In this document: positions 8,186-33,770 of the stretch, piece after piece
Layout of the letters: every line of letters begins with the position of its first letter
Numbering within the stretch: the stretch's first letter is position 1
DNA from: a virus
Length of the DNA: 35,477 bases
Direction: 5' to 3' (one strand)
UHGV virus genome: UHGV-1967114
The notes under the pieces: model-generated
Told to the model about the DNA's origin: nothing
Databases searched by the model: none
What the model saw: only the letters and a program-made list of their open reading frames with translations
Program-made: the position numbers and the translations under genes

Positions 8186-10099
8186 ATGAAACTGATTTCT
8201 AATAAGGCCAAATTAAAAAAGATTCTCAGAAATGCAGCCAAATATATTACGCCACCGCCTAAACTCCTTCCTTCTGAATGGTGCGAAGCGAATCTAACGC
8301 TAGTCGATGGTCCTCGTGCTGGGGATAAAGTTAAATTACTGTCATTTCAGAAAGGCATGATTGATGCTCCTTTCCTTGAGAAGAAAAAGAAGTACGTTTT
8401 TTGTACGAGTGCGCAGATCGGAAAGACGACCATCATGTCAGGGATCATGTTTAACCAGATGGCAAACGATCCGTGCAATATCATTATCGGGCAAAGTACC
8501 GCTAAAGAAGTGGCTATGTACTTGAATACTAAGATCCGTCCTTCTATTGAAGCATGTCCGGCATTACAGGAAGTGGTAACAGATAAGAATGATCGTAATG
8601 CGGTAAACAACAATAACCAGATTCAGCTAAAAACAAACCATTTCCTTTACATGGTTTCTTTGACCAGTCCTTCAAGTTTGCGTGGGCGTACTGCCAAGTT
8701 AGGGATTGTAGACGAATGCGACGCAGCAACAATCACCGAAGAAGGTTGTCCGGTGGCACTAACTGCAAACCGTTTAACTACCTTTGGTGATGAAGCTCGA
8801 TTGATTGTTTCTAGTACCCCAACCAATAAGCTGGGAATCATTAACCAGCAATGGTTATCAAGTGATATGCGTATGTTTTTTGTTCCGTGTCCTCATTGCG
8901 GGGAACACCAGGTGATCGAGTGGGAAAACGTTCAATTTGAATGGCGTAACATCGATGGTAAGAACTTACCCGATCCTGATACCGCTCGTTATATTTGCCC
9001 CCACTGTAAGCAATCATGGACAGAAGGGGAACGAATCAGGGCAGTAGCGCAAGGCGAGTGGAGAGCAACCCGTGAAAGTGAAGTAGCAGGATTCTGGATC
9101 AGCCGTCTGTATTCACCTTTCAGTAGTATCCGCGCTTGTGTGGTTGATTTTAGTCATGCGTGGCAATCCTTTGATTTACAATCATTTTATAACACAGTGT
9201 TAGGTAAGGTATACGACGATCAGGACACGGCAGTAGAAGCAAATGAACTGGAACAACTCAAAACAGATGTTTCTATCGAGAATATCCCTGATGACGTGAT
9301 TTTCTTGTGTGCGGGTACTGACCAGCAATTAGATCGCGCAGAAACTACGATCATGGGCGTGGCAAAGGATAAGATTTATATTCTGGATCATCGCAGCTTT
9401 TACGACCATAACTGTGAACGATATGAATCTCCTGTATGGGACAGATTAATCAACTTCCATAAAACCAAATTTACTACTGTATCGGGTGATCGTGTTCCTA
9501 TGCTCGCCAGCTTCCTTGATACATCGAACGGTCGATTCACTCAAGCCGGATACCGTATTTGCGGTGGTAAGTGGAAGAACTTACACGCAATCAAAGGTAG
9601 TTCATCTGGTACTGCTCCAATCATTCCGGTGAAACCAACTACCACGGGTGGTCATGAATTGCTTATGTTGGGCGTTAACGTGGGTAAAACGGCTATTCGT
9701 GAGCTATTAACACGCAACTTGAAAGAAAACCCTCATATTGGTTTAGAGATATCAGAAACCGTTCCTGATGATTATCTCGATCAGCTTTTGAGTGAATCCA
9801 TCAAGCGTACTGTTACTGGAACACGTTGGGTAAAAAATCCAGGTGCGACACGAAACGAGGCGCTCGACTGTCTGGTTTATAGCTATGCGGCTTCTCGCTA
9901 TGTTCTTTCAAAAATGTCATGGGATAAGCTCATTGCAATGAAAGAAAAGCTGAATCGTGAACCAGAAGCAACCGTAGAAGCTCCTAAATCACATTCTAAC
10001 GAGCAAATCGAAGAAACTAAGCCAATCACTCATCACAAACCTAATCGTCGTCCTATGGCGCGTCCTGTGCGTCGTGGTGGGTGGGTAAATAACTTTTAA
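8186..10099 (+). CDS. Terminase large subunit (lambda gpA-like ATPase/nuclease)
   Basis: 637 aa; Walker A-like SAQIGKTT and Walker B LGIVDECD; CPHCGEH...CPHCKQ motif; position upstream of portal. Confidence 0.85.
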
Positions 10100-12232: not shown

Positions 12233-14233
12233 ATGCTTAAATTTCGCCGCGATCTTAACGGTTACGGTGGAGTTATTAACGAAGGGCAGAATGATCAATA
12301 CGAATTTGAAATTGCTTTCTCCAGTGAACAGCCTTATCAGCGCCAATTCTGGGATGAGCAAAATCAAGAAATGGTGGTATTAGATGAAATTCTGGTACAT
12401 ACACCGGAAGCGGTTGATCTGTCTCGTCTGAATAATAACGCTCCGTTGCTGTTCAATCATAATTTCGATAATCACATTGGTGTCGTTTGTAACGCTCGAA
12501 TCGATGCGGATAACGTAGGTCGTGCTCTGGTTAAATTCTCCAAGCATGGCACTTTGGCTAATGATATTCGTAATAAAGTCATTGAAGGTACGATGGAAAA
12601 AATTTCTGTCGGTTATGACATTAAAGAATATCACATCGACTACACCAAAGGACAATTGATTGTTACTAAGTGGGCACCCTATGAACTCTCATTTGTCACC
12701 GTTCCCGCAGACGATACGGTCGGTTTAAATCGCTCTCTAAATACTATCACAGTTAATTTGGAGGCTAAACGCGATATGACTAAAGAACAAATCGAAGAAA
12801 TCAAAGAAGAACAAGAACCCGCTCAGGTTGAAGAAACTCCGGTAGAAGAAATTAAAGAACCGGAAGTTGAAGAAACTCAAGAGCGCCAAGTTGAAGAGAA
12901 TAAAGAAAATGAAAATCTCGAAGACGGAAAAGACGCTGAACATCCTGAAAGTGTTGATGATGATAGTTCAACTGTTCGGGAAGAAGAAGTAAAAGAAGAA
13001 CGTGAAGCCGCTCCGGTTGAAGAAGAAAAAATCGAAGAAGTGGCTGAACGTTCCGAAGAAGACGAATTAGAAATTCGCGAGATCGCTCGCGAGCTAAATA
13101 TTAACGACGAAGAATTAGAACGCGCATTGGCAGTTAAAGACATGACGCCGGAAGCATTCCGCACTAAGGCACTAAATAACATTACCAATGCTCAACGTAA
13201 TAACGAACAAATTAAGGACTCTAAAATGGAAAAAACTTTTGACCTGAACAACGTAATTCGCTCTCTGGTAGATGGTGCTGCTCTGGGTGCTAACGAAGCT
13301 GAATATTCCGCTATGGCTGCTGGTGCTGCAATGCAGCGTGGTCGTGCTGCTCGCGGTGGCTCTGTATTCGTTCCGGCTGCTGCTCTGCGTGCTGCTTCCG
13401 AAGGTAACACCAAAGCTACTCTGACCGCTGTAACTGACGAAAAACTGCTGACCGAATCCTATGTTGAAATGCTGTTGCCTCAGAGTGTTTTAGGCCGCCT
13501 CGGTGTGACTGTTCTGTCTGGTCTGAATGCTCCGATTGCTGTACCGAAAATGACTACTTCCAGCGTTGATGCTTTCGGTTTCGTTGATGAAAACGGTGCT
13601 GCACCGGAAAGCAAAGCTGAATTTGCAAACGTGAAAATGGCTCCGAAAACTTTTGCTGGTGGCAACCCGATCAGCCGTCAGTCTCTGAAAACTGTTCCGA
13701 ATATTGCTACCCTGATCACCGATCACATTAACAAATCTGTTCGGATCAAACTGGAACAACTGATTCTGTCTGATAAAGAAAATGCTCGTGGTCCGGCTGG
13801 TCTGGTTAAGCAACTGGTAGACGCGGGTCGCGTTACTAAGAAAGCCGCTTTCTCTTACAAAGACTTCCTGAAAGAAATTGCAGCACTGACCGACGCTGGC
13901 GTTCCTGCTCAGGCGATCAAGTTTGCGATGAGCGGTGCAACTGCTGCTGAACTGGAATCTACCCTGAAAGATAACGGCGTTTCCGGTTATATCATCGAAA
14001 ACGGCAAACTGGCTGGTTACGAAGTAGTTACTTCTGGTGTTATCCCGGCAGACCACATCGTTCTGGGCGCGTTCGACGGTATCACCATTGGTGAGTGGGG
14101 CGGTCTGGAACTGGATATGGACGACACTACCTACCGCGCACAGTCTGCTATCGTTCCGCGAATCTGGGTAGACCTGGATTATGTTGTTACTCAGCCGGAA
14201 GCCCTGAAAGTTCTTCACATCTCCGCTGAATGA
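12233..14233 (+). CDS. Prohead protease - scaffold-like acidic coiled-coil - major capsid protein (HK97-fold) fusion
   Basis: N-terminal motif LLFNHNFDNHIGV...SVGY...ELSFVTVPADD resembles HK97-type prohead protease (recollection); residues ~180-330 are E/K-rich; C-terminal ~330 aa capsid-like. Confidence 0.7.
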   Translation: MLKFRRDLNGYGGVINEGQNDQYEFEIAFSSEQPYQRQFWDEQNQEMVVLDEILVHTPEAVDLSRLNNNAPLLFNHNFDNHIGVVCNARIDADNVGRALVKFSKHGTLANDIRNKVIEGTMEKISVGYDIKEYHIDYTKGQLIVTKWAPYELSFVTVPADDTVGLNRSLNTITVNLEAKRDMTKEQIEEIKEEQEPAQVEETPVEEIKEPEVEETQERQVEENKENENLEDGKDAEHPESVDDDSSTVREEEVKEEREAAPVEEEKIEEVAERSEEDELEIREIARELNINDEELERALAVKDMTPEAFRTKALNNITNAQRNNEQIKDSKMEKTFDLNNVIRSLVDGAALGANEAEYSAMAAGAAMQRGRAARGGSVFVPAAALRAASEGNTKATLTAVTDEKLLTESYVEMLLPQSVLGRLGVTVLSGLNAPIAVPKMTTSSVDAFGFVDENGAAPESKAEFANVKMAPKTFAGGNPISRQSLKTVPNIATLITDHINKSVRIKLEQLILSDKENARGPAGLVKQLVDAGRVTKKAAFSYKDFLKEIAALTDAGVPAQAIKFAMSGATAAELESTLKDNGVSGYIIENGKLAGYEVVTSGVIPADHIVLGAFDGITIGEWGGLELDMDDTTYRAQSAIVPRIWVDLDYVVTQPEALKVLHISAE

Positions 14234-16041: not shown

Positions 16042-19000
16042 ATGCAATCAATCCAATTTAAACGCACACAAACGGCTGGTAAAAAACCAACGCCGGAACA
16101 ATTACAGGTCGGTGAAATCGCTATTCAGATGGCAGACCATGTAATTTACACCAAAGACAAAAATAACGCAGTAGTTCAAATCAGCGTTTCCCCAGAAAGT
16201 CATAATGCTTTAAACACGAAAGTAGACAATAACAAAACTAGCACTGACCGTGTTATTGCTTCCAACAAACAAGAGGCCGCTAATAATCTGGCTAGTGCTA
16301 AAGCTGAACTGAATCAGACTATTACCACGAAAGATACAGCGACCAATAAGCGCATTGATGCTACCAACACCACTGTTAGTAACTTAACCCAGACAGTTAC
16401 GGCAAATAAAACCGATGCCGACACTAAGATCAATAACCTTACGGGGACCGTATCTGCGAATAAGACCGCAATTGAAAGAACCGTTGCCGCAAACAAATCT
16501 GATGCAGATAGCAAACATGCAGCTTTAACGAAAACGGTCACTGACAATAACACCGCGATTAACAACAAGGTTAATACCACTAACACCAACGTTAGCAACT
16601 TAACTAAAACTGTTACTGCAAATAAAACCGATGCAGATAACAAAATTTCTAGCTTAACTAGCACGGTTGCAGCTAACAAGACAGCGATCGAAAAGACTGT
16701 TTCCGACAATAAGAAAGACGCGGATACTAAGATTACCAATCTTACTGGCACTGTTAATAGCAACCATACCGCAATTAACAACAAGGTAGACCAGAATAAA
16801 TCTTCTACTGATGCCGCAATTGCAGCCGCTAACAAACGAATTGATGGTATTGAAGGTAGCAATGATGCTCTTTACATCAAGAAGAATACCAATACTAAGC
16901 ATGGTGGGTATCTGTTAAGCAAGACAGCTAACTATCTGGAAGACCAGACATCACGAGATCTTAACTACTTTGGTGCTTTCCGTACCAATGGTCAAGATGG
17001 ACTCATGGATCTAACTCTTAACGTTCCTCACTCTTCCGGTAAAGCGCACGGTCGCGGATTTACTTTCCGTTATGCATCTGGTGGATCTCGTGTTGAAACC
17101 TATGGTTTTGATAGAGAAGGACAGAAGAACTTTAGCTATAAGATGTATCACGAAGGTGATAAGCCGACTCCTGGCGAGATTGGTGCATACACCAAAGCCG
17201 AAGTTGATAAGATGTTTGTTAAAAACGTCGTTATGTCTGTTCCCAATTCTAGCGAAAACGTATCTGCATATTTCAAATTGGCAACCGCAACAATTCCACA
17301 AAACGGGCGTAGTGTGTTTTTCCGTATTCATGGTGGTAATGGTTACAACGTTACGGCATATGATCAGGTTGACGTAGTAGAAATTCTTCTGCGTAGTGGT
17401 AACGATAGACCTAAAGGTCTTAACGTAATTGCATACCGTAGAAATACAAACAAAGATTTTGAGGTATTTGCTGTCAATACTTCCGGTGATAACTATGATA
17501 TCTACGTGAAATATCAGCGTTATACCGATAACGTTATTGTCGAATATGGGAAATCTGTTTATGTAAGTTTGACGGTTTATGATACGCCGGAAGCCACGTT
17601 AATTAAACCTTCCGTTGGTGTTATCGGTGGTCGCAACGTAACTCTTTTTAATACTGAAAATAAACGTGGTGTGTTAAGTTTTGATGATAACACACAAAAC
17701 AGCTATGACATTGTTCATCTAAGTAATGATAAAGGTACTGGACGGAAATATATTCGTAAATTCCGTAGCAACTATAACGAAATGGTTTGGCATGAAACCG
17801 TTCAGGGTGCTGTATATCGTCTTGCTACTGGTGCTACAGATTCTACAGAAGTTATTAGAATTGATTCTAATAGTGCAATACCGGGTAATTATAAAGGATA
17901 TGTAATTACTGGTAAAATGGAATTGCACGGTAGTGGTAATGCGATGACTTTACATCGACAGACTGGTCAAGCTGCATATATGGCGTGGTGGGATCGTCGT
18001 GATGGTAAAAACCAACGTAGTGGTTATATCGGTCATGCGGATGGTACTAGTGATGGTTTTGTGTGGCGTAATGATGTTGGTGCTAACTCATTTGATTTGG
18101 AAGGTAGTGGACAAGTAAATTTGACTACAGGAAAAACAAAAATTGTATATACCAATGGTCAATATTATTCCGCTAACGCTGATGCATTCCGTATGATTTA
18201 CGGTAAGTATGGTGCATTCTGGCGAAATGATGGTGGTAAAGTTTATCTGTTGTCTACTGCCGAAAATGATAGATTTGGTGGTTGGAATACATATCGACCT
18301 TTTATCTACGATCTTACTTCCGGTAACGTTCAATTAGGTGGTGATGGAAACGAAGATGTATTAACTCTAGAACGCGCAAGCAAGGCCGCTCGATTCTCTG
18401 GCAACGCTTACATCAAAGGTCAACATTTAACATTTGATGCTGGTGCTGGACAATCCCGCGATTACTTCCGGTTTAACCATTGGGGCGATAGTAATAACGC
18501 TCGCGATAACATCCTACAGATTGAAGACAGTCAGGGTGCACACTTTACCACTGAACGCGCTATGGGTACTGGCAATATCACAGCACGTTTTAAAGGCTTC
18601 GTGCGTGTAGAATCCGGTGAGATTGCCTTTGATGCTAATCGTGGATCTGCGTCTCAATTTACCTTACATACATGGGGTAACGAGCAACGCAAACAGGTTT
18701 TTGAATGTAAGGATGCTACTAGTTATCATTGGTATACCGAACGTACAAACGGTGGAACTGGTCCTATCCTGTTCTCTGTTGCTGGTACATTAAAAACTGC
18801 GAGCAATATACAGGTTGGCGGTGCTGATATTGAGTTTCGTCGCAGTGGTAATAAGCATTTATGGTTTAGAGATCCGAACGGTTTAGAATTAGGTTTGATG
18901 TACTGCGATGATGCTGGTGTTATCCGCTTCCGTGGTCAGAAACAAGGTCAAACTTGGAAACTTGCTGATAAAATGATTCATCTTGAGGCGGGGACTGTCG

Positions 19001-19644
19001 GCGGGTCTGATAAAGGTTTGATTCGTGGTAATGTTGCTGGTGGTAGCTGGGCTAGCTGGCGTGATCGTTCTGCCGGAATCCTCGTAGACTGTCCGAACTC
19101 AACCGATTCCGCTCATAACATCTGGAAAGCGACTCATTGGGGAAAATATCATATTGCGGCAATGGGTGTGCATGTTCCTAGTGGTACTATTACCAATGCT
19201 TTAGCTCGCCTAAACGTTCACGACGCCAACTTTGACTTTAACGCTGCGGGTGATTTTAGCGCAGGTCGTAACGGTAGCTTTAACGATGTTTACATTCGCT
19301 CTGACTCCCGTTTGAAGATTAACAAGGAAGAATTACAGGACGGTGCATTAGAGAAAGTAAACTCACTGAAAGTCTACACCTACGATAAAGTTAAATCTCT
19401 TTCCGATGACACGGTGATTAAACGCGAAGTAGGTATTATTGCTCAGGATCTGGAAAAAGTATTGCCGGAAGCAGTAGGTATTCAATCCACAGAAGATCCA
19501 GAACAACCGGAAGCAATCAAGACTATTTCTAACTCTGCTGTTAATGCCTTGATTATTAAAGCTATGCAGGAAATGGACGCCAAATATAAAACACAGATCG
19601 AAGCATTACAGAAAGAAATTGCCGAACTGAAAGCAACTAAATAA
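16042..19644 (+). CDS. Tail fiber protein (1200 aa) with N-terminal repetitive shaft and C-terminal intramolecular chaperone (peptidase S74-like) domain
   Basis: Repeats TVTANKTDADTKI...; C-terminal YIRSDSRLKINKEELQ...LKVYTYDK matches endosialidase-type chaperone signature (recollection). Confidence 0.75.
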   Translation: MQSIQFKRTQTAGKKPTPEQLQVGEIAIQMADHVIYTKDKNNAVVQISVSPESHNALNTKVDNNKTSTDRVIASNKQEAANNLASAKAELNQTITTKDTATNKRIDATNTTVSNLTQTVTANKTDADTKINNLTGTVSANKTAIERTVAANKSDADSKHAALTKTVTDNNTAINNKVNTTNTNVSNLTKTVTANKTDADNKISSLTSTVAANKTAIEKTVSDNKKDADTKITNLTGTVNSNHTAINNKVDQNKSSTDAAIAAANKRIDGIEGSNDALYIKKNTNTKHGGYLLSKTANYLEDQTSRDLNYFGAFRTNGQDGLMDLTLNVPHSSGKAHGRGFTFRYASGGSRVETYGFDREGQKNFSYKMYHEGDKPTPGEIGAYTKAEVDKMFVKNVVMSVPNSSENVSAYFKLATATIPQNGRSVFFRIHGGNGYNVTAYDQVDVVEILLRSGNDRPKGLNVIAYRRNTNKDFEVFAVNTSGDNYDIYVKYQRYTDNVIVEYGKSVYVSLTVYDTPEATLIKPSVGVIGGRNVTLFNTENKRGVLSFDDNTQNSYDIVHLSNDKGTGRKYIRKFRSNYNEMVWHETVQGAVYRLATGATDSTEVIRIDSNSAIPGNYKGYVITGKMELHGSGNAMTLHRQTGQAAYMAWWDRRDGKNQRSGYIGHADGTSDGFVWRNDVGANSFDLEGSGQVNLTTGKTKIVYTNGQYYSANADAFRMIYGKYGAFWRNDGGKVYLLSTAENDRFGGWNTYRPFIYDLTSGNVQLGGDGNEDVLTLERASKAARFSGNAYIKGQHLTFDAGAGQSRDYFRFNHWGDSNNARDNILQIEDSQGAHFTTERAMGTGNITARFKGFVRVESGEIAFDANRGSASQFTLHTWGNEQRKQVFECKDATSYHWYTERTNGGTGPILFSVAGTLKTASNIQVGGADIEFRRSGNKHLWFRDPNGLELGLMYCDDAGVIRFRGQKQGQTWKLADKMIHLEAGTVGGSDKGLIRGNVAGGSWASWRDRSAGILVDCPNSTDSAHNIWKATHWGKYHIAAMGVHVPSGTITNALARLNVHDANFDFNAAGDFSAGRNGSFNDVYIRSDSRLKINKEELQDGALEKVNSLKVYTYDKVKSLSDDTVIKREVGIIAQDLEKVLPEAVGIQSTEDPEQPEAIKTISNSAVNALIIKAMQEMDAKYKTQIEALQKEIAELKATK
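16366..16797 (+). repeat. In-gene tandem coding repeats (two ~216-nt units with ~33-nt subrepeats) in tail fiber shaft
   Basis: Near-identical stretch ACTGTTACTGCAAATAAAACCGATGC at ~16390 and ~16611; explains spurious minus ORF 16314..16862. Confidence 0.6.
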
Positions 19645-20349: not shown

Positions 20350-20856
20350 ATGGCAAATGTCGTTAAAGTTCCTGGCTGGATCGGGTCATCTGCTGTATCG
20401 GTGACGGGTAAGCGATGGATGAAAGAAGCATTAACAGCTTTAAAAGTTCCGGCTCCGCGTAATATGTCGGCAATGGCTGGTCGTGGTATGGATACGGTTG
20501 TAGCTACTGCATCGTGGTCTACTTCATTGGGTAATAACTGGGGTGTAACTGCTTCAAACTATCCTGTTTCCGGTATGCAAAGCAAAGGATCTATGGAGAA
20601 CCCCGAAAACGTGGGCGTAGGGCGTCTGGTTGGCGTTATCGTTGGTCAATTCAATGGCGGTACTCCTACTATGGCTGTATATCTCCAGAACGGTAGAGCG
20701 GGGAATATAACCGTTAATTTGGGTGGTGCTGCTGTCACTGTTCCTTATAACAGTATGCAAAGTGGTTTTCATTACTATTGGTTAAGCAATCCTCCGGCTG
20801 CTTTCCTAACAAATATTAAGAAAACTGGCACTAAGCAGACTTTGAAAATCTCTTAA
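20350..20856 (+). CDS. Hypothetical Gly/Ser/Thr-rich protein inserted between tail tube terminator and tail chaperone genes
   Basis: 168-aa ORF with RBS GGAG; no lambda counterpart at this position. Confidence 0.5.
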   Translation: MANVVKVPGWIGSSAVSVTGKRWMKEALTALKVPAPRNMSAMAGRGMDTVVATASWSTSLGNNWGVTASNYPVSGMQSKGSMENPENVGVGRLVGVIVGQFNGGTPTMAVYLQNGRAGNITVNLGGAAVTVPYNSMQSGFHYYWLSNPPAAFLTNIKKTGTKQTLKIS

Positions 20857-24080: not shown

Positions 24081-24641
24081 ATGTTCAAATCCAAGAATAT
24101 TAAAATCACAGATTTTACTCTTAAATCAAAACAACCTTTCTTCAAGGCGCAATCTATTTCTGGTAAGTTCCAGCGTCGCTTTACTGGTATTCATTTTTAT
24201 GAAGCAGAATTTACAGCTAATTTCATGGCTCAGGATATTAACGAAGTAAAAGAATTTGTAGCACGTCACCTTTTTGGTCGTCCTTTTAGTGTGCCACTGT
24301 CTTACTTTTCAAAATATACAGGTGATGTACGCCAGATGGTTACGGCTGCTGCTGGTACTGCTCGCGGTGGGCGTAAGGTGAGAATCTCCAACTTCACCGG
24401 AACACTGAAAGCAGGAACTATCATCCAGTTTGAGAACCACAAGAAAATCTACACGATCACCGAAGATGTGAAATCAGGTGGTGAAATGAAACTCTTCCCT
24501 AACTTGCGTCAGAACGTCCTAGCGGGTGAGGTGATCAAGTATCAGAACGTAGAAGGTGAATTTGTTCTCAAAACTGAAAATATCGATTGGAAGATCGCCC
24601 AGATTGGCAAGATGAAATTCGAATTAGTGGAGAATGTATAA
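24081..24641 (+). CDS. Minor tail protein (gpM-like position / distal tail protein candidate); start at ATG 24081
   Basis: Position after tape measure; stop overlaps next start (TAATG). Confidence 0.5.
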   Translation: MFKSKNIKITDFTLKSKQPFFKAQSISGKFQRRFTGIHFYEAEFTANFMAQDINEVKEFVARHLFGRPFSVPLSYFSKYTGDVRQMVTAAAGTARGGRKVRISNFTGTLKAGTIIQFENHKKIYTITEDVKSGGEMKLFPNLRQNVLAGEVIKYQNVEGEFVLKTENIDWKIAQIGKMKFELVENV

Positions 24642-25294
24642 TGGCAACTATTCAGGAATCATTCAGCAAACTATGCACTAATCTGGACTTCATCGAGGTC
24701 TACAACGACCAGACAGGTCAGAATGTGTCTAGATTGACGCTACCGCAGCTTTTCTCCACTGGATCGATGTTTCACATTATCGAAGTGATAACAGCGTCAG
24801 GGGACGTTCTACGGCTTACAGATGGGTATTTCGATTTGGACTATAACGGTTTTACATATCTCGCAACGGGTGATTTTCTTCAAATCTCATCGAATACCGA
24901 AGAGAAGGAGATCAACAACAACGGGATCAACGTAACTGTTTCTAACGTTCGCGAAGAATACATTACCCTGATTCGTAACAAGCAATTCGATAAATCAGAT
25001 GTGAAAATCGAGATGGTTTTCCTTAACCCCAACACGGGCAAAGTTGAAACCACTTACCCTGTTTTCCGTGGGGTAGTCGATTCCATCGGGATTAACATCG
25101 AACATGAAGATGATGAGTGTAAAAACGAATCAGAATTTCAGCTTAATAGTATCTGGGAAGTTCTAGATAAAAACGCTCGTAGTCATGCCTCCGATGGTAT
25201 CCACCGTTCCTATGTTGGAAACGAGAACGATCTATTCTTCTCAAGGGCGGGTCGCTGGCAATCAGAAAGCAGGTGGCATTCATCGAAGAAATAA
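24641..25294 (+). CDS. Minor tail protein (gpL-like position)
   Basis: 217-aa ORF coupled to upstream gene by TAATG overlap; position. Confidence 0.5.
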   Translation: MATIQESFSKLCTNLDFIEVYNDQTGQNVSRLTLPQLFSTGSMFHIIEVITASGDVLRLTDGYFDLDYNGFTYLATGDFLQISSNTEEKEINNNGINVTVSNVREEYITLIRNKQFDKSDVKIEMVFLNPNTGKVETTYPVFRGVVDSIGINIEHEDDECKNESEFQLNSIWEVLDKNARSHASDGIHRSYVGNENDLFFSRAGRWQSESRWHSSKK

Positions 25295-25340
25295 TCCCTT
25301 CTCCCTAAGCCTAGTAAATAACAGCATGGAGGTATTCAAC

Positions 25341-25760
25341 ATGCTAAAAACTAGGCTTATCACCGATTACATCAATTCTTTAATAGGTCAGGAGTTCGTT
25401 CAGGGTGAGAATGATTGCAATTTAATTGCATGTAAGATCATCGATATTCTCGCTGGCACTGATCTATATAATTCTCTTTATAAAAAATATTCAACTAAAG
25501 AAGAAGGCTTGAAAATCTGCAAAGAATTAAGCGGGTATTCAAATATCCTTCAACCAATTAAGAAACATTTCAAATTAGTCACTGATGATTTACAGGACGG
25601 CGATTTACTGGTCACAGCCCACAAATTAGGAAACCGTAATTATTATTCCGTAGTTCCTCATTATTCCGGTTATGGCCTCGTTGAAGAAGATGGTATCTGG
25701 ATGACCATTCCTGTTTCAGACATTGACTATGAACAAGTTTATAGATTCGGGGGTGAATAA
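25341..25760 (+). CDS. NlpC/P60-like tail assembly protein (gpK-like C-terminal domain)
   Basis: GENDCNLIAC...GDLLV.AH....NYYSVVPHYSGYG pattern resembles Cys-His-His NlpC/P60 catalytic arrangement; RBS GGAGG; stop overlaps J-like start. Confidence 0.5.
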   Translation: MLKTRLITDYINSLIGQEFVQGENDCNLIACKIIDILAGTDLYNSLYKKYSTKEEGLKICKELSGYSNILQPIKKHFKLVTDDLQDGDLLVTAHKLGNRNYYSVVPHYSGYGLVEEDGIWMTIPVSDIDYEQVYRFGGE

Positions 25761-28700
25761 TGGGATTTGAAATATTGGTAGGCGCGGTTATTGCTGGTGC
25801 GTCTGCTGGGATGGCTGCTGCTGCAACATTTTCTGTTATGACCGCAGTCGCTATCGGTATGGCTGCTGGTGCAATGACCTTGATCGCTTCCACTGTAGGC
25901 GCACCAAAAACACCTAAAGTACAAAGCCCAGATAATGCGGTGACACTAGGAACATCAAACGATCCGAAAGCGGTGATACCAGTCGTTTTCGGTACTACCC
26001 GCACTGGCACAAACTGTGTTTACAAAGCAGTTTCTAAGCAAGAAAACAATAAGCTAGTGCAAATCTTCTCTGTAGCCGAGGGTGAAATCGACCATTACAA
26101 AGCACTCTTTATTGATAATAAAAATGTTCTTGTTGGTAAGAACATGACGATCCGTGATGGTATTCTCGATAAGGGCAACATTAAAGAAGAATATCGTAAA
26201 GTATTAGAAGTCGAGTTCCGCACGGGCAAGAATCCTAACACCGCTTTGTCGCTGGCAAAACGTCATTTAGGCTCAGACTGGACCGACGCTTTCAAGGGTA
26301 ACGGCATTGCAACCATGTGTATTGTGTTACGTCGTGATGACAAATCTCTTGCTGCTGGTGTTGATATTCTCCAGCCAAATAGCCAGGTAGCAGTAGACGT
26401 TTGCGGGTTAAAGATTCGTAACCTTGAAACCAATGCTATTGAGGCTAGCACTAACGGCGTGGACCAGATTTTCCACTACCTAACAAATGAAAAATATGGT
26501 TTATCAGTACCAATTGAAAACATCAACGTTGATTCATTCCTGAAAGTACGTAAACAAGTACGCCAGATGGACCTACATTCAAACGGTGCATGTGATCCGA
26601 ACGCCAGCTTTAAAGAGAACTTGACCAGTCTTATGCAGACTTTCGGCGGGGTGATGTTCGAATCCTTTGGACGTATTACGCTGAAACTGGATGCTCCTGA
26701 TATTGTTAAGCATACCTTCAATGAAGACAATATCATGATGGGTAAGGTATCACTGAAAACAGGTGGCACTAACGGTTATTTCAATACCATTAACGCAATG
26801 TATCAGGAACCATCAATCGACTATTCAGAGCAAATGCTACGTTATCCGGCTGATGCTGAAAACGATGCTACTGTTCGCGCAGATGGTCGAATTATTGCTA
26901 AGGATGTAGAATATCGTTTCGTTAAGTCTAAAGACCAGATTGATAAACTTGCGAGTATTGAACGAAATAAATCTCGTATCACTCAGGTTATCAGCTTTAT
27001 GACTACTGACGCATTCACTGCCGAAGTATGGGACGTTATCAGCGTAACCTATGATGAATTGAAGCTGAATAATTCCTTATGGCGTATTACTGCAATTGAT
27101 CGCTCGATTGATTCTGGTATTGCTGGGATGATGACTATCACCGCCACAGAATATAATTCTCAGGTTTATACTGACCTGAACTATGCGGCAACTCCAGACA
27201 ATAGACCAAGTGGTTTACCGGATTCAATGACAGTACAGAAGCCTACTAATTTCAGAATTAAGGCAACTGGCGAGACGATTTACGGTAAAAACGTTACTTT
27301 GACATGGGATGCGCCGGAAGATTTTAACCGTTATGGTTTTCAGATTGATTACCGTGTAAGCGGATCACCTAACTGGATTAAGCTGGGACAGACTTCACAG
27401 CAAATTTTCAGTGTCAATGCACTGGCAAAAGATCGTTCTTATGATTACCGAGTTTGTGCTTTCGGTATCATCGCTCGATCCGATTGGGTAGAACTGATTA
27501 ACCAGAATCCAACTGTTACATATGAATTGCCGACTCCGGTTATTCGAATCAAAAATCAGGGTAGCACGCCAGGAACTTTCGAAGGTAATGATCTGATTAT
27601 CGAATGGGAAAATCAGCAACAATTAGATGTTGAGATCAACGGGGAAACTAACAAGTTTAGTGACCTGTTTGAAGCATACATTATCAAGGTGACTAACAAG
27701 GCTGGTAAGTCTATTCAGTACCGTACCCGCGATCCTGAATCATGGACTTATACGCTTGATATGAACCAGTTTAACGGCCTTTCGCGTCAACTGACGGTAG
27801 AAGTATCAGCTAAGGGCTATAACAACTCAGAGAGCGCCCCAGCGCGTTTAGTGGCTATCAACCCACAGCATAAGCCAATGAAAGGTTTTAGTGCGCGTGG
27901 TGGCTTTAATACTGCGTTTGTTAGCTGGGCAGATGACGTAGAACATGACTATGCAGGGTCAATCATCCAGTATGCAACCGATAACACTTTCTCCGATGCA
28001 AGGGCAGTAAGCACGAATAGTGTTAGCCATACTTCCTTTGATATTGCTGACGGTGATTATTATATCCGTGGTGCTCACTACGATATTTTCGGTATGGATG
28101 ATGCTGTCTGGTCCGAACCTTATTTCATGTCTATGAAGTCTACGATTAGTTGGGACGACCAGGACAAAGAAGCACTGGAAGACCTGATTGGTTTACAAGA
28201 TCGCTTAGATGAAACCATCGCTGATGCTATTGCTCAAGCTGGCGCTAATGCCGATGCTAAAATTGATGCAATGCATAAGCAAATCACTACCGAAACAGGG
28301 CAGACGGTGCAAGCCTCAGCCGATACCTTAAAGAGTCTGATTACTTCTGGTGATCAAGCCAGTGCAACTAAGATTGATCAGGTTAAAGCTGAACTGAAAG
28401 GCGATATCACCAAAGAAGTTAGCGCATCTGCTACTACCCTGAAACAAGCTATTGCTACCAGTGAGGCAGCAAGCGCAAGTAAGATTGATCAAGTTCGGGT
28501 AGAAATGGATGGCAAGATTGCTGGTGTGAATCAGGAAGCAGATGTAAAAATCGATGCTTTGAAAGGAACCATTAACAGCAAATACAATCTGGCAGTTAAT
28601 GCAGATGGTCGCGTGGCTGGTATTCACATGAGCGCAACCAACGATCCGGCACAACCGACTAAAATCATCTTTACGGCTGATAAAATTGCTGTAGCTCCGC

Positions 28701-29506
28701 AGAACGGGACCGATGTTTGCCCGTTTGGTATCGAAGGTAACAAGGTTTATCTCGATAATGCGATGATTCGTAATGCTGCAATTGGCACAGCCCAGATTAA
28801 TGATGCGGCGATTACTACCGCTAAGATCGGAAATGCTGCAATTAACAGCGCGAAGATTCAGGACGGGGCAATCACTAACGCCAAGATCGTAAACGGTGCA
28901 ATTGATAACGCCAAAATTGGTAACTATATCCAGTCTTCCAACTGGAACGGATCTACCGGATGGCATATCAACAAGAACGGGTCCGCTACGTTCATGAATG
29001 CTACCGTTAAAGGTAATATCACGGCTGATTCTGGTACTCTGAACAACGTCACGATTAACTCTAGCTGTGTTATTAAGGGTATGCTTGAAGCTACTCAGGT
29101 TAAGGGTGATTTCGTTAAGGTGATTGGTAAGAAATTCCCTCATCGTCAACAAAACTGGCCTGATGGCACTGTTACGGTAAGGGTGGAAGATGATCATAAG
29201 TTTGATCGCCAAATTGTGATTCCAGCTATTCACCATAACGGGTCTGTTCGTCGTGGCGAAAGTAGTGATCATTGGGACACTTGCCGATTAATCGTTAAGA
29301 AAAATGGCTCTGTTCTATATGATCGCACGGCTACTTCTGGCAGCATGTACACAGGCGTTATTGACATGCCAGCGGGTAAAGGTGCTGTAACGTTAACATT
29401 CCAAGTTATTTGTGATGGTGTTAACAACTATAACCCAAGTGCATATATCAGCGATCTAACAGTAATGGTAACTAAAAAAGCCACTACTGGTATTACTGTT
29501 TCTTAA
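25760..29506 (+). CDS. Central tail fiber / host specificity protein (lambda gpJ-like) with hydrophobic Gly/Ala-rich N-terminal segment
   Basis: C-terminal ~150 aa (..SGTLNNVTINSSCVIKGMLEA..FPHRQQNWPDGTVTVRVEDDHKFDRQIV...VIDMPAGKGAVTLTF...MVTKKATTGITVS) closely resembles my recollection of lambda J receptor-binding end. Confidence 0.85.
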   Translation: MGFEILVGAVIAGASAGMAAAATFSVMTAVAIGMAAGAMTLIASTVGAPKTPKVQSPDNAVTLGTSNDPKAVIPVVFGTTRTGTNCVYKAVSKQENNKLVQIFSVAEGEIDHYKALFIDNKNVLVGKNMTIRDGILDKGNIKEEYRKVLEVEFRTGKNPNTALSLAKRHLGSDWTDAFKGNGIATMCIVLRRDDKSLAAGVDILQPNSQVAVDVCGLKIRNLETNAIEASTNGVDQIFHYLTNEKYGLSVPIENINVDSFLKVRKQVRQMDLHSNGACDPNASFKENLTSLMQTFGGVMFESFGRITLKLDAPDIVKHTFNEDNIMMGKVSLKTGGTNGYFNTINAMYQEPSIDYSEQMLRYPADAENDATVRADGRIIAKDVEYRFVKSKDQIDKLASIERNKSRITQVISFMTTDAFTAEVWDVISVTYDELKLNNSLWRITAIDRSIDSGIAGMMTITATEYNSQVYTDLNYAATPDNRPSGLPDSMTVQKPTNFRIKATGETIYGKNVTLTWDAPEDFNRYGFQIDYRVSGSPNWIKLGQTSQQIFSVNALAKDRSYDYRVCAFGIIARSDWVELINQNPTVTYELPTPVIRIKNQGSTPGTFEGNDLIIEWENQQQLDVEINGETNKFSDLFEAYIIKVTNKAGKSIQYRTRDPESWTYTLDMNQFNGLSRQLTVEVSAKGYNNSESAPARLVAINPQHKPMKGFSARGGFNTAFVSWADDVEHDYAGSIIQYATDNTFSDARAVSTNSVSHTSFDIADGDYYIRGAHYDIFGMDDAVWSEPYFMSMKSTISWDDQDKEALEDLIGLQDRLDETIADAIAQAGANADAKIDAMHKQITTETGQTVQASADTLKSLITSGDQASATKIDQVKAELKGDITKEVSASATTLKQAIATSEAASASKIDQVRVEMDGKIAGVNQEADVKIDALKGTINSKYNLAVNADGRVAGIHMSATNDPAQPTKIIFTADKIAVAPQNGTDVCPFGIEGNKVYLDNAMIRNAAIGTAQINDAAITTAKIGNAAINSAKIQDGAITNAKIVNGAIDNAKIGNYIQSSNWNGSTGWHINKNGSATFMNATVKGNITADSGTLNNVTINSSCVIKGMLEATQVKGDFVKVIGKKFPHRQQNWPDGTVTVRVEDDHKFDRQIVIPAIHHNGSVRRGESSDHWDTCRLIVKKNGSVLYDRTATSGSMYTGVIDMPAGKGAVTLTFQVICDGVNNYNPSAYISDLTVMVTKKATTGITVS

Positions 29507-29524
29507 AATTTAATTTTAATAATA

Positions 29525-29566
29525 AATCCCGCTTAATTCTTTTGAGTTAGGCGGGATTATTTTTAT
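29525..29566 (+). terminator. Terminator-like hairpin after J-like gene (AATCCCGC...GCGGGATT + ATTTTTAT)
   Basis: 8-bp stem with large 18-nt loop and T-rich tail. Confidence 0.45.
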
Positions 29567-29611
29567 CTAAATAATTTTGCCATTAAACTATATAAAAATA
29601 TCGGGGGCGTA

Positions 29612-31779: not shown

Positions 31780-32052
31780 CTATGATTTATTTTCTTGTTC
31801 TATGAAAATCTTTCTCACCTCATCAGAATAAATGTCTAGTGATTCCTCATAACATTTTCTGTATTCACCGTAATTACTGGTGGTCTTTTGACATAGCAAT
31901 TTCAATGTTTTATGTGCTCCATCAATGAAAGCATCTTCTCTATAGGTTAGCGGTCTACGCATTTCTTGGTCTACGGTTGCCAATGCCAGGCAAGAATTCA
32001 TAGATAAAATCAAACCTAAAATCTTAATCATCTTCATTAGCTTAAATTCCAA
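31780..32052 (-). CDS. Small secreted protein (signal peptide MKMIKILGLILSMNSCLALA), Cys-containing
   Basis: Hydrophobic N-terminus with ALA cleavage-like site; overlaps 3' end of recombinase gene. Confidence 0.5.
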   Translation of the reverse strand: MEFKLMKMIKILGLILSMNSCLALATVDQEMRRPLTYREDAFIDGAHKTLKLLCQKTTSNYGEYRKCYEESLDIYSDEVRKIFIEQENKS

Positions 32053-33721
32053 ATTCCTGTAATGGACCTGGTATTTCTTCTTCTGGTTTCCAGTTCTTAT
32101 CTGTCAGCATGTCTAAACATGGATGCAGAACAAGCCCGTTACTCTCCAGAATCTGCCTATCATTGATAGTCTTCAAATCAATGAAGATCCGGCCTTTCCT
32201 CGGTCCTCTTGAATTTTCTATTACAACTCTCTGGGTCTTGCCATCGATGTATTCCAATACAAACAAGTTTTTGTACTTGTCAATCCTGCTACACCCGATC
32301 CGTTTTAGAGCTTGCTTAATCTTAAACCGGACCTTAATGCGATCCTCGTTGTAAACATCTTCTAAATCAAATTCTGCGAGCTTCTCCCAGCCTTGAGAGT
32401 CAACAGAATACATTTCCTCTTCTGCCATCTTAATTTGATTGTAGAGTGTTTCACGCTCGCTATTGAGGGTAGTAATCTGATCGGCTAGCTCCTTCGTTGC
32501 TCCTGTCATAGCAGAAAGGGTAATCAGGTTATCAATCTTGCGTGATATTTCATCAATCTGTACTTTCAAAGCCGGAACCGGATTAGCCTTATCTTCAGCA
32601 ATCCAGATTTTATCAGCCAGCAATTGCAATACAGCTTTCTCTAATTGGTCGCCGCGAAAACTCCAGTTTGTATGCACACATTCAATACGACTAGAGCGCA
32701 TTGCATCGCATGAATAACGATATTGGTTAGGCCGTCTGTTTGTTCCTTTCACCTTAACCATAGCGGAACCGCAATGTTCACATTTCAATAGACCAACACC
32801 ACTAAGCAAGGGAATAGGTTTAACTTCTTCTTTGTCTCCAAAGTTACATGCTCTAACACCAATGCTTTTCTTAAGGTGATAAAACTCAGCGTCATCTAGC
32901 ACACGAGGATAATAATCCTTTAACTCATACTTAACGCCATCTACAGAGATTTCCTTGATACCAATCAAAGCGCGGGTATGGAACAACCTTTCAATCATTG
33001 CCCGTGACCAGTTTGAATGCCTCTTGTGACTTGCGGCTGGTGGTGGTGTGTATGTCGCGTTAAGGTGATCCAGTATCTCGGCGGTTGACCGTCCATTCCT
33101 GCGTAATTCCACAACTTCCTGAACAATAGGGAAGAAGACCGGATGAGGAAGCACATAACCAGATGTGGTATCAGTCCACCACATATTCTTTCCAATTTCC
33201 TCGATTGCAACAGCCGGATTTTGTGGATTTTCTTGATGAGCTTTAATCTTAATCAGTGCGCTTGAGTTAGTACGATTGCGCTTAGTCTGGCTTTCCTCAT
33301 TACCACGGATGAATAAAAGGATGGAGAACATCAGGTCCATCGGGTTAGCGGTAACAGTATCCAGCGAGTAGATCTTGTTATCCATGCCAGTAACAATGGT
33401 TATCCCCCTACGGATGATTGAAAGGAATAACTCCTGCGCACTGACAATATCGGCACGGGATAAACGGTCCAAGTTTTCGATGAATAGCCAGCTACCAACA
33501 GGAACGGATCTACCTATTGCATCAAGGAAACGAGATAGCGCCCCTGTTTTGGAGTTAGCACCCTTAAACGCAGATACACCCAGATCCTGATAATCATTTA
33601 CCAGTTCAAGGTCATACTTTACCGCAATCTCTCTAGCCATCCTGATTTGTCGTTCATAACTCGAACCATCATTCTGACGCATAGACGAGAAGCGAATATA
33701 CGAATACAGTTTAGTTTTCAT
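32042..33721 (-). CDS. Large serine recombinase (probable prophage integrase); start taken at ATG 33721
   Basis: N-terminal resolvase-type motif YIRFSSMRQ (catalytic Ser), central recombinase region, zinc-ribbon CEHCGSAMVKV...YRYSCD...IECVH; 559 aa. Confidence 0.85.
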   Translation of the reverse strand: MKTKLYSYIRFSSMRQNDGSSYERQIRMAREIAVKYDLELVNDYQDLGVSAFKGANSKTGALSRFLDAIGRSVPVGSWLFIENLDRLSRADIVSAQELFLSIIRRGITIVTGMDNKIYSLDTVTANPMDLMFSILLFIRGNEESQTKRNRTNSSALIKIKAHQENPQNPAVAIEEIGKNMWWTDTTSGYVLPHPVFFPIVQEVVELRRNGRSTAEILDHLNATYTPPPAASHKRHSNWSRAMIERLFHTRALIGIKEISVDGVKYELKDYYPRVLDDAEFYHLKKSIGVRACNFGDKEEVKPIPLLSGVGLLKCEHCGSAMVKVKGTNRRPNQYRYSCDAMRSSRIECVHTNWSFRGDQLEKAVLQLLADKIWIAEDKANPVPALKVQIDEISRKIDNLITLSAMTGATKELADQITTLNSERETLYNQIKMAEEEMYSVDSQGWEKLAEFDLEDVYNEDRIKVRFKIKQALKRIGCSRIDKYKNLFVLEYIDGKTQRVVIENSRGPRKGRIFIDLKTINDRQILESNGLVLHPCLDMLTDKNWKPEEEIPGPLQEFGI

Positions 33722-33730
33722 ACCATTTCC

Positions 33731-33770
33731 AAACAAAAACGCCCCTACCGCGTATTATAACGATAGGGGC
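33731..33770 (-). terminator. Terminator-like hairpin between secreted-protein gene and recombinase gene (minus strand)
   Basis: GCCCCTA...TAGGGGC stem with 16-nt loop, followed on minus strand by GTTTTTGTTT. Confidence 0.45.

What the first reader, a model, noticed from the sequence alone, without database searches (positions are those of the whole stretch)
25760..29506. J-like tip protein with lambda-J-like receptor-binding C-terminus and an unusual hydrophobic N-terminal segment
The C-terminal ~150 aa closely resemble the lambda J receptor-binding end as I recall it, suggesting an outer-membrane porin receptor such as LamB. The first ~50 residues are a Gly/Ala-rich hydrophobic stretch that I tentatively associate with the C-terminal region of gpI-type tail assembly proteins, so this could be an I-J fusion; no separate gpI-like gene is evident.
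Basis: partly seen in the sequence, partly recalled or inferred. Interest (0 to 1): 0.4.

Follow-up and report, generated by a model that had tools for sequence, protein, structure and literature searches.

The report
Prophage tail-tip protein with built-in plug
This gene encodes the tail-tip and central-fibre protein of an E. coli prophage; it carries at its front end the membrane-inserting plug that phage lambda makes as a separate protein (gpI) and at its back end a lambda-J-type receptor-binding domain, an arrangement that is real but already known and common.

Summary
The ORF at 25760-29506 (+, 1248 aa) is real and intact. The window is 100% identical to a prophage beside hicB/ydcR in E. 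coli PI7, and the gene occurs in 57 of 5426 complete E. coli genomes.

- **C-terminus.** The last ~135 aa are a lambda-J-type receptor-binding domain (Pfam Ig_GpJ_C, E 3.5e-35; 41% identical to lambda J).
- **N-terminus.** Residues 1-95 are homologous to the C-terminal half of lambda gpI, i.e. two hydrophobic helices plus the plug and beta-strands (hhalign 96.9%, E 1.6e-10). In a six-frame search of lambda, gpI is the only hit.
- **Rest of the protein.** Residues 95-1247 are colinear with lambda J 20-1131 (hhalign 99.7%).
- **No separate gpI.** No ubiquitin-like gpI domain is found anywhere in the window.

- **"Unusual".** The same N-terminus heads 493 protein clusters of J-like proteins. TAPI-TAPJ fusions were noted in 2006, and structures of RcGTA, R4C and Avs-1 describe the equivalent N-terminal iris/tripod.
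- **LamB.** The binding domain is as close to the OmpC-using A8 gpJ (45.5%) as to lambda J (41%), so the receptor cannot be named.

Verdict: an ordinary new member of a known kind. Interest is low.

The parts
25749..25762 (+). Translation start: GGGGGTG Shine-Dalgarno-like run, then an ATG that overlaps the upstream TAA by one base (TAATG)
   Evidence: Read directly from the sequence. The Met1 start is conserved in relatives.
25760..29506 (+). Whole gene: tail-tip hub plus central fibre protein (gpJ-type), 1248 aa
   Evidence: ORF. PGAP names it 'phage tail tip domain-containing protein' in identical E. coli genomes. The family alignment is colinear with lambda gpJ (hhalign 99.7%).
25760..25897 (+). 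aa 1-46: Ala/Gly-rich hydrophobic segment with two hydropathy maxima (about aa 5-23 and 24-44). Counterpart of lambda gpI helices H1/H2; inferred membrane-insertion element
   Evidence: Composition and hydropathy. HMM and hhalign alignment to gpI. Role of H1/H2 in lambda from PMC11101478. AF2 confidence here is low, pLDDT below 50.
25898..26044 (+). aa 47-95: conserved motif APKxPK...DP..V(I/L)PV(V/I)(F/Y)G..R.G. Counterpart of the gpI plug and beta-strands (gpI 156-211)
   Evidence: BLASTP 36% identity, aa 48-92 against gpI 156-208. A motif-only profile hits gpI alone in lambda six-frame ORFs, E 9e-6. hhalign 96.2-96.9%. AF2 strands at 75-91 have pLDDT about 90.
26045..27199 (+). aa 96-480: baseplate-hub domains, with a Phage-tail_3-like core at aa 285-447 (26612-27100)
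   Evidence: Pfam Phage-tail_3, 20.2 bits, below the 23-bit cutoff. 41 of 50 family members match it. Foldseek hits T5/DT57C pb3 at E 5e-33, lambda gpJ at 4.5e-23, and the T1, JBD30 and Chi hubs. hhalign to gpJ.
27212..28129 (+). aa ~485-790: fibronectin-type-III-like beta-sandwich repeats. Boundaries are approximate; aa 651-790 were not modelled
   Evidence: Pfam fn3 weak hit at 508-570. All-beta segments at 496-632 in the AF2 model. Many FN3 structure hits. Colinear with the lambda J FNIII region.
28142..29098 (+). aa ~795-1113: central fibre shaft, with Phage_Tail_Tip at aa 931-1028. Shared with lambda J, T1, F-pyocin and DCP80 fibres
   Evidence: Pfam PF09327, E 1.7e-18. PDB sequence hits 9l9p_S, 25vf_A, 23gd_D and 7z4b. 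44-78% identity to DCP80 over aa 951-1100.
28769..28918 (+). aa 1004-1053: five tandem 10-residue repeats (xxxAIxxA[K/Q]I), absent from lambda J
   Evidence: Motif scan. TRF finds a 60-nt period, 2.2 copies, at 28772-28903. The region falls in a gap of the lambda J alignment.
29099..29503 (+). aa 1114-1248: Ig-like receptor-binding domain of the lambda gpJ type (Ig_GpJ_C at 29150-29503)
   Evidence: Pfam E 3.5e-35. PDB 9wca A8 gpJ 116 bits, lambda gpJ 85 bits. It is the most variable part among E. coli relatives and is replaced by unrelated sequence in more distant family members.
24081..24641 (+). Neighbour: distal tail protein (in the position of lambda gpM)
   Evidence: phrog_1302 'distal tail protein', E 3e-16. 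Weak DTP-pb9_B-dom hit. PGAP coordinates.
24641..25294 (+). Neighbour: hub/attachment protein (in the position of lambda gpL; RcGTA g13-like N-domain)
   Evidence: Pfam Phage_phiJL001_Gp84_N, E 8.7e-6, 26.4 bits against a cutoff of 26. phrog_2048, E 1.9e-27. PGAP calls it 'DUF2163 domain-containing' in a relative.
25341..25760 (+). Neighbour: DUF6950 protein in the position of lambda gpK. No JAB/MPN domain detected
   Evidence: Pfam DUF6950, E 3.2e-12, is the only hit. No relative with a solved structure was found by sequence. PGAP coordinates.

Best explanation
The gene encodes the trimeric tail-tip protein of a temperate E. coli siphophage and combines three functions in one chain.

1. Residues 1-95 are the in-cis equivalent of the C-terminal half of lambda gpI. 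They comprise two hydrophobic helices followed by a plug and beta-strand segment.
2. Residues ~96-790 form the baseplate-hub cone plus FN3 domains.
3. Residues ~795-1248 form a central fibre that ends in a lambda-J-type Ig-like receptor-binding domain.

Proposed mechanism, by analogy with the lambda, RcGTA, R4C and Avs-1 structures (inferred, not shown here):
- In the virion the three N-termini sit inside the cone. They close the channel and support the C-terminus of the tape measure protein.
- The C-terminal domain binds a trimeric outer-membrane protein, probably a porin; which one is unknown.
- The resulting rearrangement opens the cone and releases the hydrophobic N-termini toward the outer membrane, so the tape measure protein and the DNA can leave.

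Lambda's separate gene I, with its extra ubiquitin-like domain, and the JAB domain of gpK are simply not part of this system.

Shown here: ORF integrity, the homologies, the domain order, the predicted hub fold and the population distribution. Inferred: the plug and membrane-insertion role, and the receptor class.
For: ORF and start site.

Homology of the N-terminus to gpI:
- BLASTP aa 48-92 against gpI 156-208, 36% identity.
- The gpI family phrog_32 matches aa 3-96 at profile positions 100-200 (E 0.005). The J family phrog_31 matches aa 6-110 at positions 182-297 (E 3.8e-6), and the lambda gpI C-terminus matches phrog_31 positions 182-276.
- A profile of 143 N-termini hits only gpI among 1025 six-frame ORFs of lambda plus an E. 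coli locus (E 5e-7). The motif-only profile gives 9e-6, with the next hit at 0.78.
- hhalign 96.9%, E 1.6e-10.
- The reverse search with a gpI-C profile ranks the J N-terminus first in the window, weakly (E 0.067).

Colinearity with gpJ: window aa 95-1247 against J 20-1131, 99.7%.

Hub fold: AF2 mean pLDDT 82.7. Foldseek hits pb3 of T5/DT57C at E 5e-33 and lambda gpJ at 4.5e-23.

Binding domain.

Function of the homologous parts, from the literature:
- Lambda gpI has helices H1/H2, a plug at 159-175 and strands threaded through gpJ (PMC11101478; PMC10721106).
- The megatron iris/penetration domain occupies residues 1-46 in RcGTA and 1-45 in R4C.
- The Avs-1 gp23 N-terminus forms a gpI-like tripod.

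Context:
- Gene order is distal tail protein, Gp84_N hub, DUF6950, then J.
- No ubiquitin-like gpI domain occurs anywhere in the window.
- The gene is maintained intact in 54 of 57 E. coli genomes that carry it.
Against: - No experiment bears on this protein.
- AF2 gives pLDDT below 50 for aa 1-60, so the helices and plug are not modelled.
- The single-sequence similarity to gpI is short, and its E-value of 2e-5 applies to a tiny search space. tblastn of gpI against the window reported nothing.
- The N-terminal profile does not score the R4C megatron significantly. Only a profile-to-sequence hhalign of 92% links the two.
- The terminase gene of this copy of the prophage is annotated as frameshifted, so this particular copy may not make virions.
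- The receptor is unknown.
Confidence: 0.8

Rival explanations
1. The receptor-binding domain specifically recognises LamB, as in lambda.
For: The domain belongs to the Ig_GpJ_C family. It is 41% identical to the LamB-binding domain of lambda J. The host is E. coli, which has LamB.
Against: It scores higher against A8 gpJ (116 bits, 45.5% identity) than against lambda J (85 bits, 41%). A8 was shown to use OmpC in a lamB-deleted host (PMC11338833). A8 and lambda are themselves 44.8% identical yet use different porins. The closest non-family domains are only 52-58% identical. Relatives differ most in this domain, with 54% identity over aa 1151-1200 in strain GN4741.
Confidence: 0.2
2. The I-J arrangement is a recent, lineage-specific gene fusion of formerly separate lambda-like I and J genes.
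For: Lambda-type phages have separate I and J genes in this order. The junction maps neatly, with gpI ~211 meeting gpJ ~20.
Against: The same N-terminus heads 493 clusters (at 50% identity) of long proteins from diverse metagenomes, and 41 of 50 tested carry Phage-tail_3. The hub part has no BLASTP similarity to lambda J. No trace of the ubiquitin-like half of gpI remains. The head and tail module is related to DCP80 and R4C/RcCronus-type phages, not to lambdoid phages.
Confidence: 0.05
3. The hydrophobic N-terminus is unrelated to gpI. It could be a signal peptide or membrane anchor, or the product of a mis-called start or a merged ORF.
For: Ala/Gly-rich hydrophobic stretches can give spurious profile scores; the bias term was 15.6 in the full N-terminal profile hit. 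AF2 does not model the segment.
Against: The low-bias motif-only profile (aa 46-96) still finds gpI alone (E 9e-6, bias 0.3), and hhalign gives 96.2% for it. There is a Shine-Dalgarno-like run and a coupled start. The start and segment are conserved across relatives that are 40-95% identical. The segment is 46 residues long with no basic n-region or cleavage motif. The ORF is identical or near-identical in many independent complete genomes.
Confidence: 0.04

Closest known systems
Phage lambda gpJ (central tail fibre / tip attachment protein J; PDB 8IYK, 8XCG, 8XCJ)
   Same: The overall order is the same: hub domains, FN3 domains, helical/beta-prism fibre, then a C-terminal Ig-like binding domain. 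The family alignment is colinear with gpJ 20-1131. Phage_Tail_Tip and Ig_GpJ_C are both present, and the fold search finds gpJ.
   Different: Only aa 949-1247 are similar at the BLASTP level (31%). NCBIfam lambda_TipJ scores 196.7 bits against a cutoff of 1950. This protein has an extra five 10-residue repeats. It carries the gpI-like segment in cis, whereas lambda J starts about 20 residues before the shared part.
Phage lambda gpI (tail assembly/insertion protein I, 'TAPI'), C-terminal half ('TAPI-C')
   Same: There is a hydrophobic Gly/Ala-rich stretch of about 45-55 residues, followed by APK..P...D and a (V/I)(L/I)PV(L/V)(Y/F)G..R.G motif. In lambda this part forms the lumenal plug/tripod and the predicted membrane-inserting helices.
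   Different: The ubiquitin-like N-domain (Pfam Lambda_tail_I, gpI 14-97) is absent. The segment is covalently joined to the J-like chain. The partner gpK-position protein has no JAB domain.
TAPI-TAPJ fusions noted by Iyer, Burroughs and Aravind 2006 (PMC1779556)
   Same: [quoted passage not shown]
   Different: As described there, those fusions involve the whole TAPI protein, including the ubiquitin-like domain. Here only the TAPI-C part is present.
'Megatron' proteins of RcGTA (g15) and roseophage R4C (gp16); Aeromonas phage Avs-1 gp23
   Same: An N-terminal hydrophobic iris/penetration domain (residues 1-46 or 1-45) closes the channel and is proposed to enter the outer membrane. The Avs-1 gp23 N-terminus forms a gpI-like tripod. 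Gene order is the same: distal tail protein, Gp84_N-type hub, small protein, large tip protein. The capsid is related to that of R4C (32% identity).
   Different: Sequence similarity to the R4C megatron is marginal: hhalign 92% over the first ~290 residues, with no BLASTP or HMM hit. Megatrons end in a fibre-binding domain with separate fibres, whereas this protein ends in its own central fibre and lambda-type binding domain.
A8 gpJ chimera (PDB 9WCA/9WCB; Brödel et al. 2024)
   Same: It is the closest solved binding domain (116 bits, 45.5% identity).
   Different: A8 is a lambda gpJ carrying a natural variant C-terminus that uses OmpC. At 45% identity, shared receptor use cannot be assumed.
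Phage T5 / DT57C baseplate hub protein pb3
   Same: It is the best structural match to the modelled first 650 residues (E 5e-33, TM 0.61). It also closes the tube with a hydrophobic plug carried in cis (discussed in PMC10721106).
   Different: The pb3 plug is an insertion within a hub domain, not an N-terminal segment. Sequence identity is about 16%. T5 uses a separate receptor-binding protein.

Membership tests
Lambda TipJ (NCBIfam NF049904 lambda_TipJ) | Full-length match above the curated cutoff of 1950 bits | tested here: not met
   196.7 bits, and only aa 1068-1248 match profile positions 973-1163.
gpJ-type receptor-binding domain (Pfam PF12421 Ig_GpJ_C) | Domain match above the gathering score at the extreme C-terminus | tested here: met
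   121.5 bits against 26.2, aa 1131-1248. Confirmed against the solved gpJ domains.
Phage tail tip fibre (Pfam PF09327 Phage_Tail_Tip) | Domain match above the gathering score upstream of the binding domain | tested here: met
   67.1 bits against 22, aa 931-1028.
Siphophage baseplate hub / J-like (Pfam PF13550 Phage-tail_3; hub-domain fold) | Phage-tail_3 match above the gathering score | tested here: inconclusive
   20.2 bits against a cutoff of 23 for this protein. However, 41 of 50 family members match (best E 5.3e-19).
Siphophage baseplate hub / J-like (Pfam PF13550 Phage-tail_3; hub-domain fold) | Hub-domain fold shared with pb3 and gpJ | tested here: met
   AF2 pLDDT 82.7. Foldseek hits pb3 at E 5e-33 and gpJ at 4.5e-23, plus the T1, JBD30 and Chi hubs. 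hhalign to gpJ 99.7%.
Lambda gpI / TAPI | Ubiquitin-like N-terminal domain (Pfam PF06805 Lambda_tail_I) | tested here: not met
   No Pfam hit even at E up to 10 for aa 1-110. A gpI N-domain profile finds nothing in the six-frame window (best E 0.7).
Lambda gpI / TAPI | C-terminal part: hydrophobic Gly/Ala-rich region plus the conserved plug/strand motif (TAPI-C) | tested here: met
   hhalign 96.9%, E 1.6e-10. gpI is the unique profile hit in lambda. phrog_32 E 0.005. BLASTP 36% identity.
Megatron proteins (RcGTA g15 / R4C gp16) | N-terminal hydrophobic iris/penetration segment of about 45 residues | tested here: met
   aa 1-46 are hydrophobic, compared with 1-46 in RcGTA and 1-45 in R4C.
Megatron proteins (RcGTA g15 / R4C gp16) | Detectable sequence homology to a structurally defined megatron | tested here: inconclusive
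   hhalign of family A2 against the R4C megatron gives 92.3%, E 5.4e-7, over residues 1-296/1-279. There is no BLASTP hit, and the N-terminal HMM is not significant.
Megatron proteins (RcGTA g15 / R4C gp16) | C-terminal fibre-binding domain that docks separate tail fibres | not tested
   The C-terminus here is a lambda-type fibre and binding domain instead. No comparison with the megatron fibre-binding domain was made.
LamB-dependent phages | Binding of the C-terminal domain to maltoporin LamB | not testable with these tools
   Sequence is equidistant from a LamB binder and an OmpC binder. A host-range or binding assay is needed.

The most novel reading that the evidence does not exclude
The prophage may be an undescribed E. 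coli lineage of the R4C/RcGTA-type siphophage group that has assembled its host-recognition apparatus from three sources:
- a megatron-type tip with the plug in cis;
- a lambda-type porin-binding domain belonging to its own clade (at most 58% identical to any lambdoid J domain found), which may recognise a receptor other than LamB or OmpC;
- a T-even-type gp37/gp38 side fibre.

Because it naturally lacks the ubiquitin-like domain of gpI and the JAB domain of gpK, it could serve as a minimal system for asking what that module does in lambda tail assembly.
Probability: 0.3. Interest if true: 0.35.

Novelty: new member of a known kind. Interest (0 to 1): 0.2.

Why it matters
It matters modestly.

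- **Annotation.** Pfam's Lambda_tail_I model covers only the ubiquitin-like half of gpI. The functionally important plug and membrane half therefore goes unannotated, both in gpI and at the N-terminus of hundreds of J-like protein clusters. This gene is currently labelled only 'phage tail tip domain-containing protein'.
- **Evolution.** The tip plug can be supplied in cis or in trans, and the ubiquitin-like and JAB parts of the lambda I/K pair are absent from this lineage.
- **Engineering.** The C-terminal domain is a further natural variant of the lambda-J binding module. It could be grafted onto lambda-based delivery particles, as was done for A8 and 1A2.

None of this overturns current understanding.

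Tried and rejected
- **Pfam on the N-terminus.** A scan of aa 1-110 at E up to 10 gave no gpI hit. This proved uninformative, because PF06805 models only gpI 14-97.
- **tblastn with lambda proteins.** Lambda M, L, K, I, J and H were searched against the window. Only the J C-terminus and a weak H match appeared. Nothing appeared for gpI, even though profile methods detect it, so tblastn is too insensitive here.
- **Word-indexed homologue search.** aa 1-450 returned only 8 proteins, mostly fragments. The exhaustive profile search was needed.
- **Standalone gpI-like hits.** I looked for them among the profile hits. All hits under 360 aa looked like truncated N-terminal fragments of J-like genes, judged by eye from their sequences. 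The profile included about 30 J residues, which biases it toward fused forms.
- **gpI C-terminus search.** It returned only close lambdoid gpI proteins (68% identity or more), so the gpI profile is narrow.
- **N-terminal HMMs against R4C proteins.** Not significant, so I do not file this protein as a megatron by sequence.
- **DUF6950 protein.** Sequence searches of the PDB and NCBIfam gave no informative hit. Its relation to the gpK NlpC/P60 domain is left open.
- **Literature on 9WCA/9WCB.** A search for a paper describing these structures found only the 2024 Nature paper.
- **Signal-peptide or mis-start reading.** Rejected on conservation and on the coupled start.

Full report
**What is there**

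Coordinates 25760-29506 hold one uninterrupted + strand ORF of 1248 codons. The ATG is preceded by GGGGGTG at 25749-25755 and overlaps the TAA of the upstream gene by one base. The window has about 41% G+C.

Over the stretch tested (25300-29600), the window is 100% identical to a chromosomal prophage of E. coli PI7 and of strain 24AR0357. The gene is present in 57 of 5426 complete E. coli genomes, and in 54 of them at 80% coverage or more. PGAP labels it 'phage tail tip (domain-containing) protein'. In PI7 the prophage sits next to a truncated hicB and ydcR, and it carries a large serine recombinase.

The genes just upstream, in order, are:
- a tape measure-sized protein (810 aa);
- a distal tail protein;
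- a hub protein with an RcGTA-g13-like N-domain (Phage_phiJL001_Gp84_N);
- a DUF6950 protein.

This is the position occupied by H-M-L-K-(I)-J in lambda.

**The C-terminus**

- Pfam finds Ig_GpJ_C at aa 1131-1248 (E 3.5e-35) and Phage_Tail_Tip at aa 931-1028 (E 1.7e-18).
- BLASTP against lambda J aligns only aa 949-1247 to J 872-1131 (31% identity, E 4e-36). A roughly 50-residue insertion in the window protein interrupts the alignment. The insertion consists of five tandem 10-residue repeats.
- Among solved structures, the best match to the last 135 residues is 'A8 gpJ 713' (9WCA, 116 bits), followed by lambda gpJ (85 bits).

**The receptor inference**

A8 is a natural gpJ C-terminal variant that was shown to deliver DNA through OmpC in a lamB-deleted host (PMC11338833). 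The window domain is 45.5% identical to A8 and 41.0% to lambda, and A8 and lambda are 44.8% identical to each other. The three domains are thus mutually equidistant, and two of them use different porins.

The nearest domains outside this prophage family are only 52-58% identical. All come from E. coli or E. albertii J proteins.

Within the prophage family the hub is 84-100% conserved, but aa 1001-1248 drop to 54-70% identity in places. More distant family members (phage DCP80 and metagenomic representatives) share the protein up to about aa 1100 and then carry unrelated C-termini. The binding domain is therefore an exchangeable, fast-evolving module. A trimeric porin is a reasonable guess at the receptor class, but LamB specifically is not supported.

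**The N-terminus**

Residues 1-47 are 45% Ala plus Gly with a single charged residue. They contain the only strongly hydrophobic windows in the protein, with two maxima.

Evidence for homology to the C-terminal half of lambda gpI:
- Lambda gpI residues ~101-155 have the same hydrophobic character and are followed by APKARTPRIQ...VLPVLYGEMRVGSRVV. The window has APKTPKVQ...VIPVVFGTTRTGTNCV.
- BLASTP aligns aa 48-92 to gpI 156-208 (36% identity).
- Pfam cannot see this similarity, because its Lambda_tail_I model covers only gpI 14-97.
- PHROGs can. The gpI family (phrog_32) matches aa 3-96 at profile positions 100-200. The J family (phrog_31) matches aa 6-110 at positions 182-297, and the lambda gpI C-terminus matches phrog_31 at positions 182-276.
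- A profile built from 143 diverse N-termini, run against all six-frame ORFs of lambda plus a 44-kb E. coli locus, finds gpI as the only non-self hit (E 5e-7).
- A low-bias profile of the motif region alone gives E 9e-6, with the next hit at 0.78.
- Profile-profile comparison gives 96.9% probability (E 1.6e-10) over aa 28-95 against gpI 140-211.

Evidence that the rest is gpJ-like:
- The family alignment is colinear with lambda gpJ from window residue 95 to J residue 20 and onward to the C-terminus (99.7%).
- An AlphaFold model of aa 1-650 has mean pLDDT 82.7, with aa 1-60 below 50.
- Its best solved-structure matches are the baseplate hub proteins of T5/DT57C (E 5e-33), lambda gpJ (4.5e-23), T1, JBD30 and Chi.

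The architecture is therefore gpI(C-terminal half) joined to gpJ.

No ubiquitin-like gpI domain exists anywhere in the window. The protein in the gpK position shows no JAB domain.

**How common and how known**

A profile of aa 1-128, searched exhaustively against 1.84 billion representative proteins, finds 493 clusters at E of 0.001 or better.
- Nearly all of the 150 best hits listed match at the extreme N-terminus.
- 95 of those 150 are 600 aa or longer.
- The hits under 360 aa looked like truncated fragments of the same kind of gene, judged by eye from their sequences.
- Of 50 long representatives, 41 carry Phage-tail_3, and only the window protein carries Ig_GpJ_C.

The literature already covers the arrangement:
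- Iyer et al. 2006 defined 'TAPI-C' and noted TAPI-TAPJ fusions in prophages.
- Lambda structures show that gpI 101-223 forms two predicted transmembrane helices, a plug (159-175) and strands threaded through gpJ.
- The RcGTA and R4C 'megatron' proteins begin with an iris/penetration domain at residues 1-46 and 1-45.
- The N-terminus of Avs-1 gp23 is described as a gpI-like tripod.

The capsid protein in the window is closest to DCP80 (46% identity), then to R4C (32%) and the RcCronus-type phages. This places the whole structural module in that lineage. Direct sequence evidence linking this tip protein to the R4C megatron is only marginal.

**Mechanism**

By homology, the trimer closes the tail tube. 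The N-terminal segments act as the lumenal plug and as a support for the tape measure C-terminus. Binding of the C-terminal domain to an outer-membrane protein triggers opening of the cone. The hydrophobic N-termini are then released toward the outer membrane ahead of the tape measure protein and the DNA.

The homologies and the hub fold are shown here. The plug and membrane roles and the receptor class are inferred.

**Verdict**

The protein is a new member of a known kind: a J-like tip protein with the gpI-C module in cis and a swapped-in lambda-type binding domain. Interest is low (0.2).

Noticed in passing
window 16042-19644 (+), especially 16910-19576: A 1200-aa tail-fibre gene with about 80% nucleotide identity to the long tail fibre distal subunit (gp37) of RB49-like T-even phages. 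It has Gp34_trimer and Peptidase_S74 (intramolecular chaperone) domains and is the only part of window 12000-35477 (the stretch searched) with a near-nucleotide match in the phage collection. It indicates exchange of fibre modules between a temperate siphophage-type prophage and lytic T-even phages.
   Followed up: partly
window 20350-20856 (+): A 168-aa ORF with a T-even Gp38 adhesin N-terminal domain (PF21721, E 3.9e-15). It lies between the tail tube gene and the tail chaperone genes, and presumably caps the gp37-like fibre.
   Followed up: no
window ~8073-10099 (+): In the identical E. coli PI7 record, the terminase large subunit is annotated as a pseudogene (frameshifted, internal stop). 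This copy of the prophage may therefore be unable to package DNA (coordinates converted with an offset of 5299).
   Followed up: no
window 32042-33736 (-) and the prophage end; L005 29963-30082: A large serine recombinase (Resolvase + Recombinase + Zn_ribbon_recom) lies near the prophage end. In PI7 the element abuts a truncated hicB antitoxin gene next to ydcR, which suggests integration into hicB.
   Followed up: no
L003 11078-12306 (E. coli CP149945.1): In one E. coli genome the orthologous J gene is split by an IS3-family transposase into a 333-aa N-terminal piece and a 940-aa C-terminal piece.
   Followed up: no
L008 and L009 1-295 (E. coli PK8568, O55:H7 DEC5A): In some relatives the gene immediately upstream of the DUF6950 gene encodes a NUMOD3-domain DNA-binding protein (homing-endonuclease-like). 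In GN4741 the gene at that position is the DUF2163 hub gene; the window also has the hub gene there.
   Followed up: no
window 12233-14233 (+): The 666-aa 'major capsid family' protein is closest to Escherichia phage DCP80 (46% identity). The next matches are Dinoroseobacter phage R4C (32%) and Rhodobacter RcCronus-type phages, so this is an E. coli relative of a mainly alphaproteobacterial phage group. The DCP80 record is classified under Straboviridae/Gaprivervirus, which looks inconsistent with these structural genes.
   Followed up: partly
window 28328-29272 (-): A 314-aa antisense ORF lies wholly inside the J gene. There is no evidence that it is a gene, and it is probably a by-product of the codon composition of the sense strand.
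   Followed up: no
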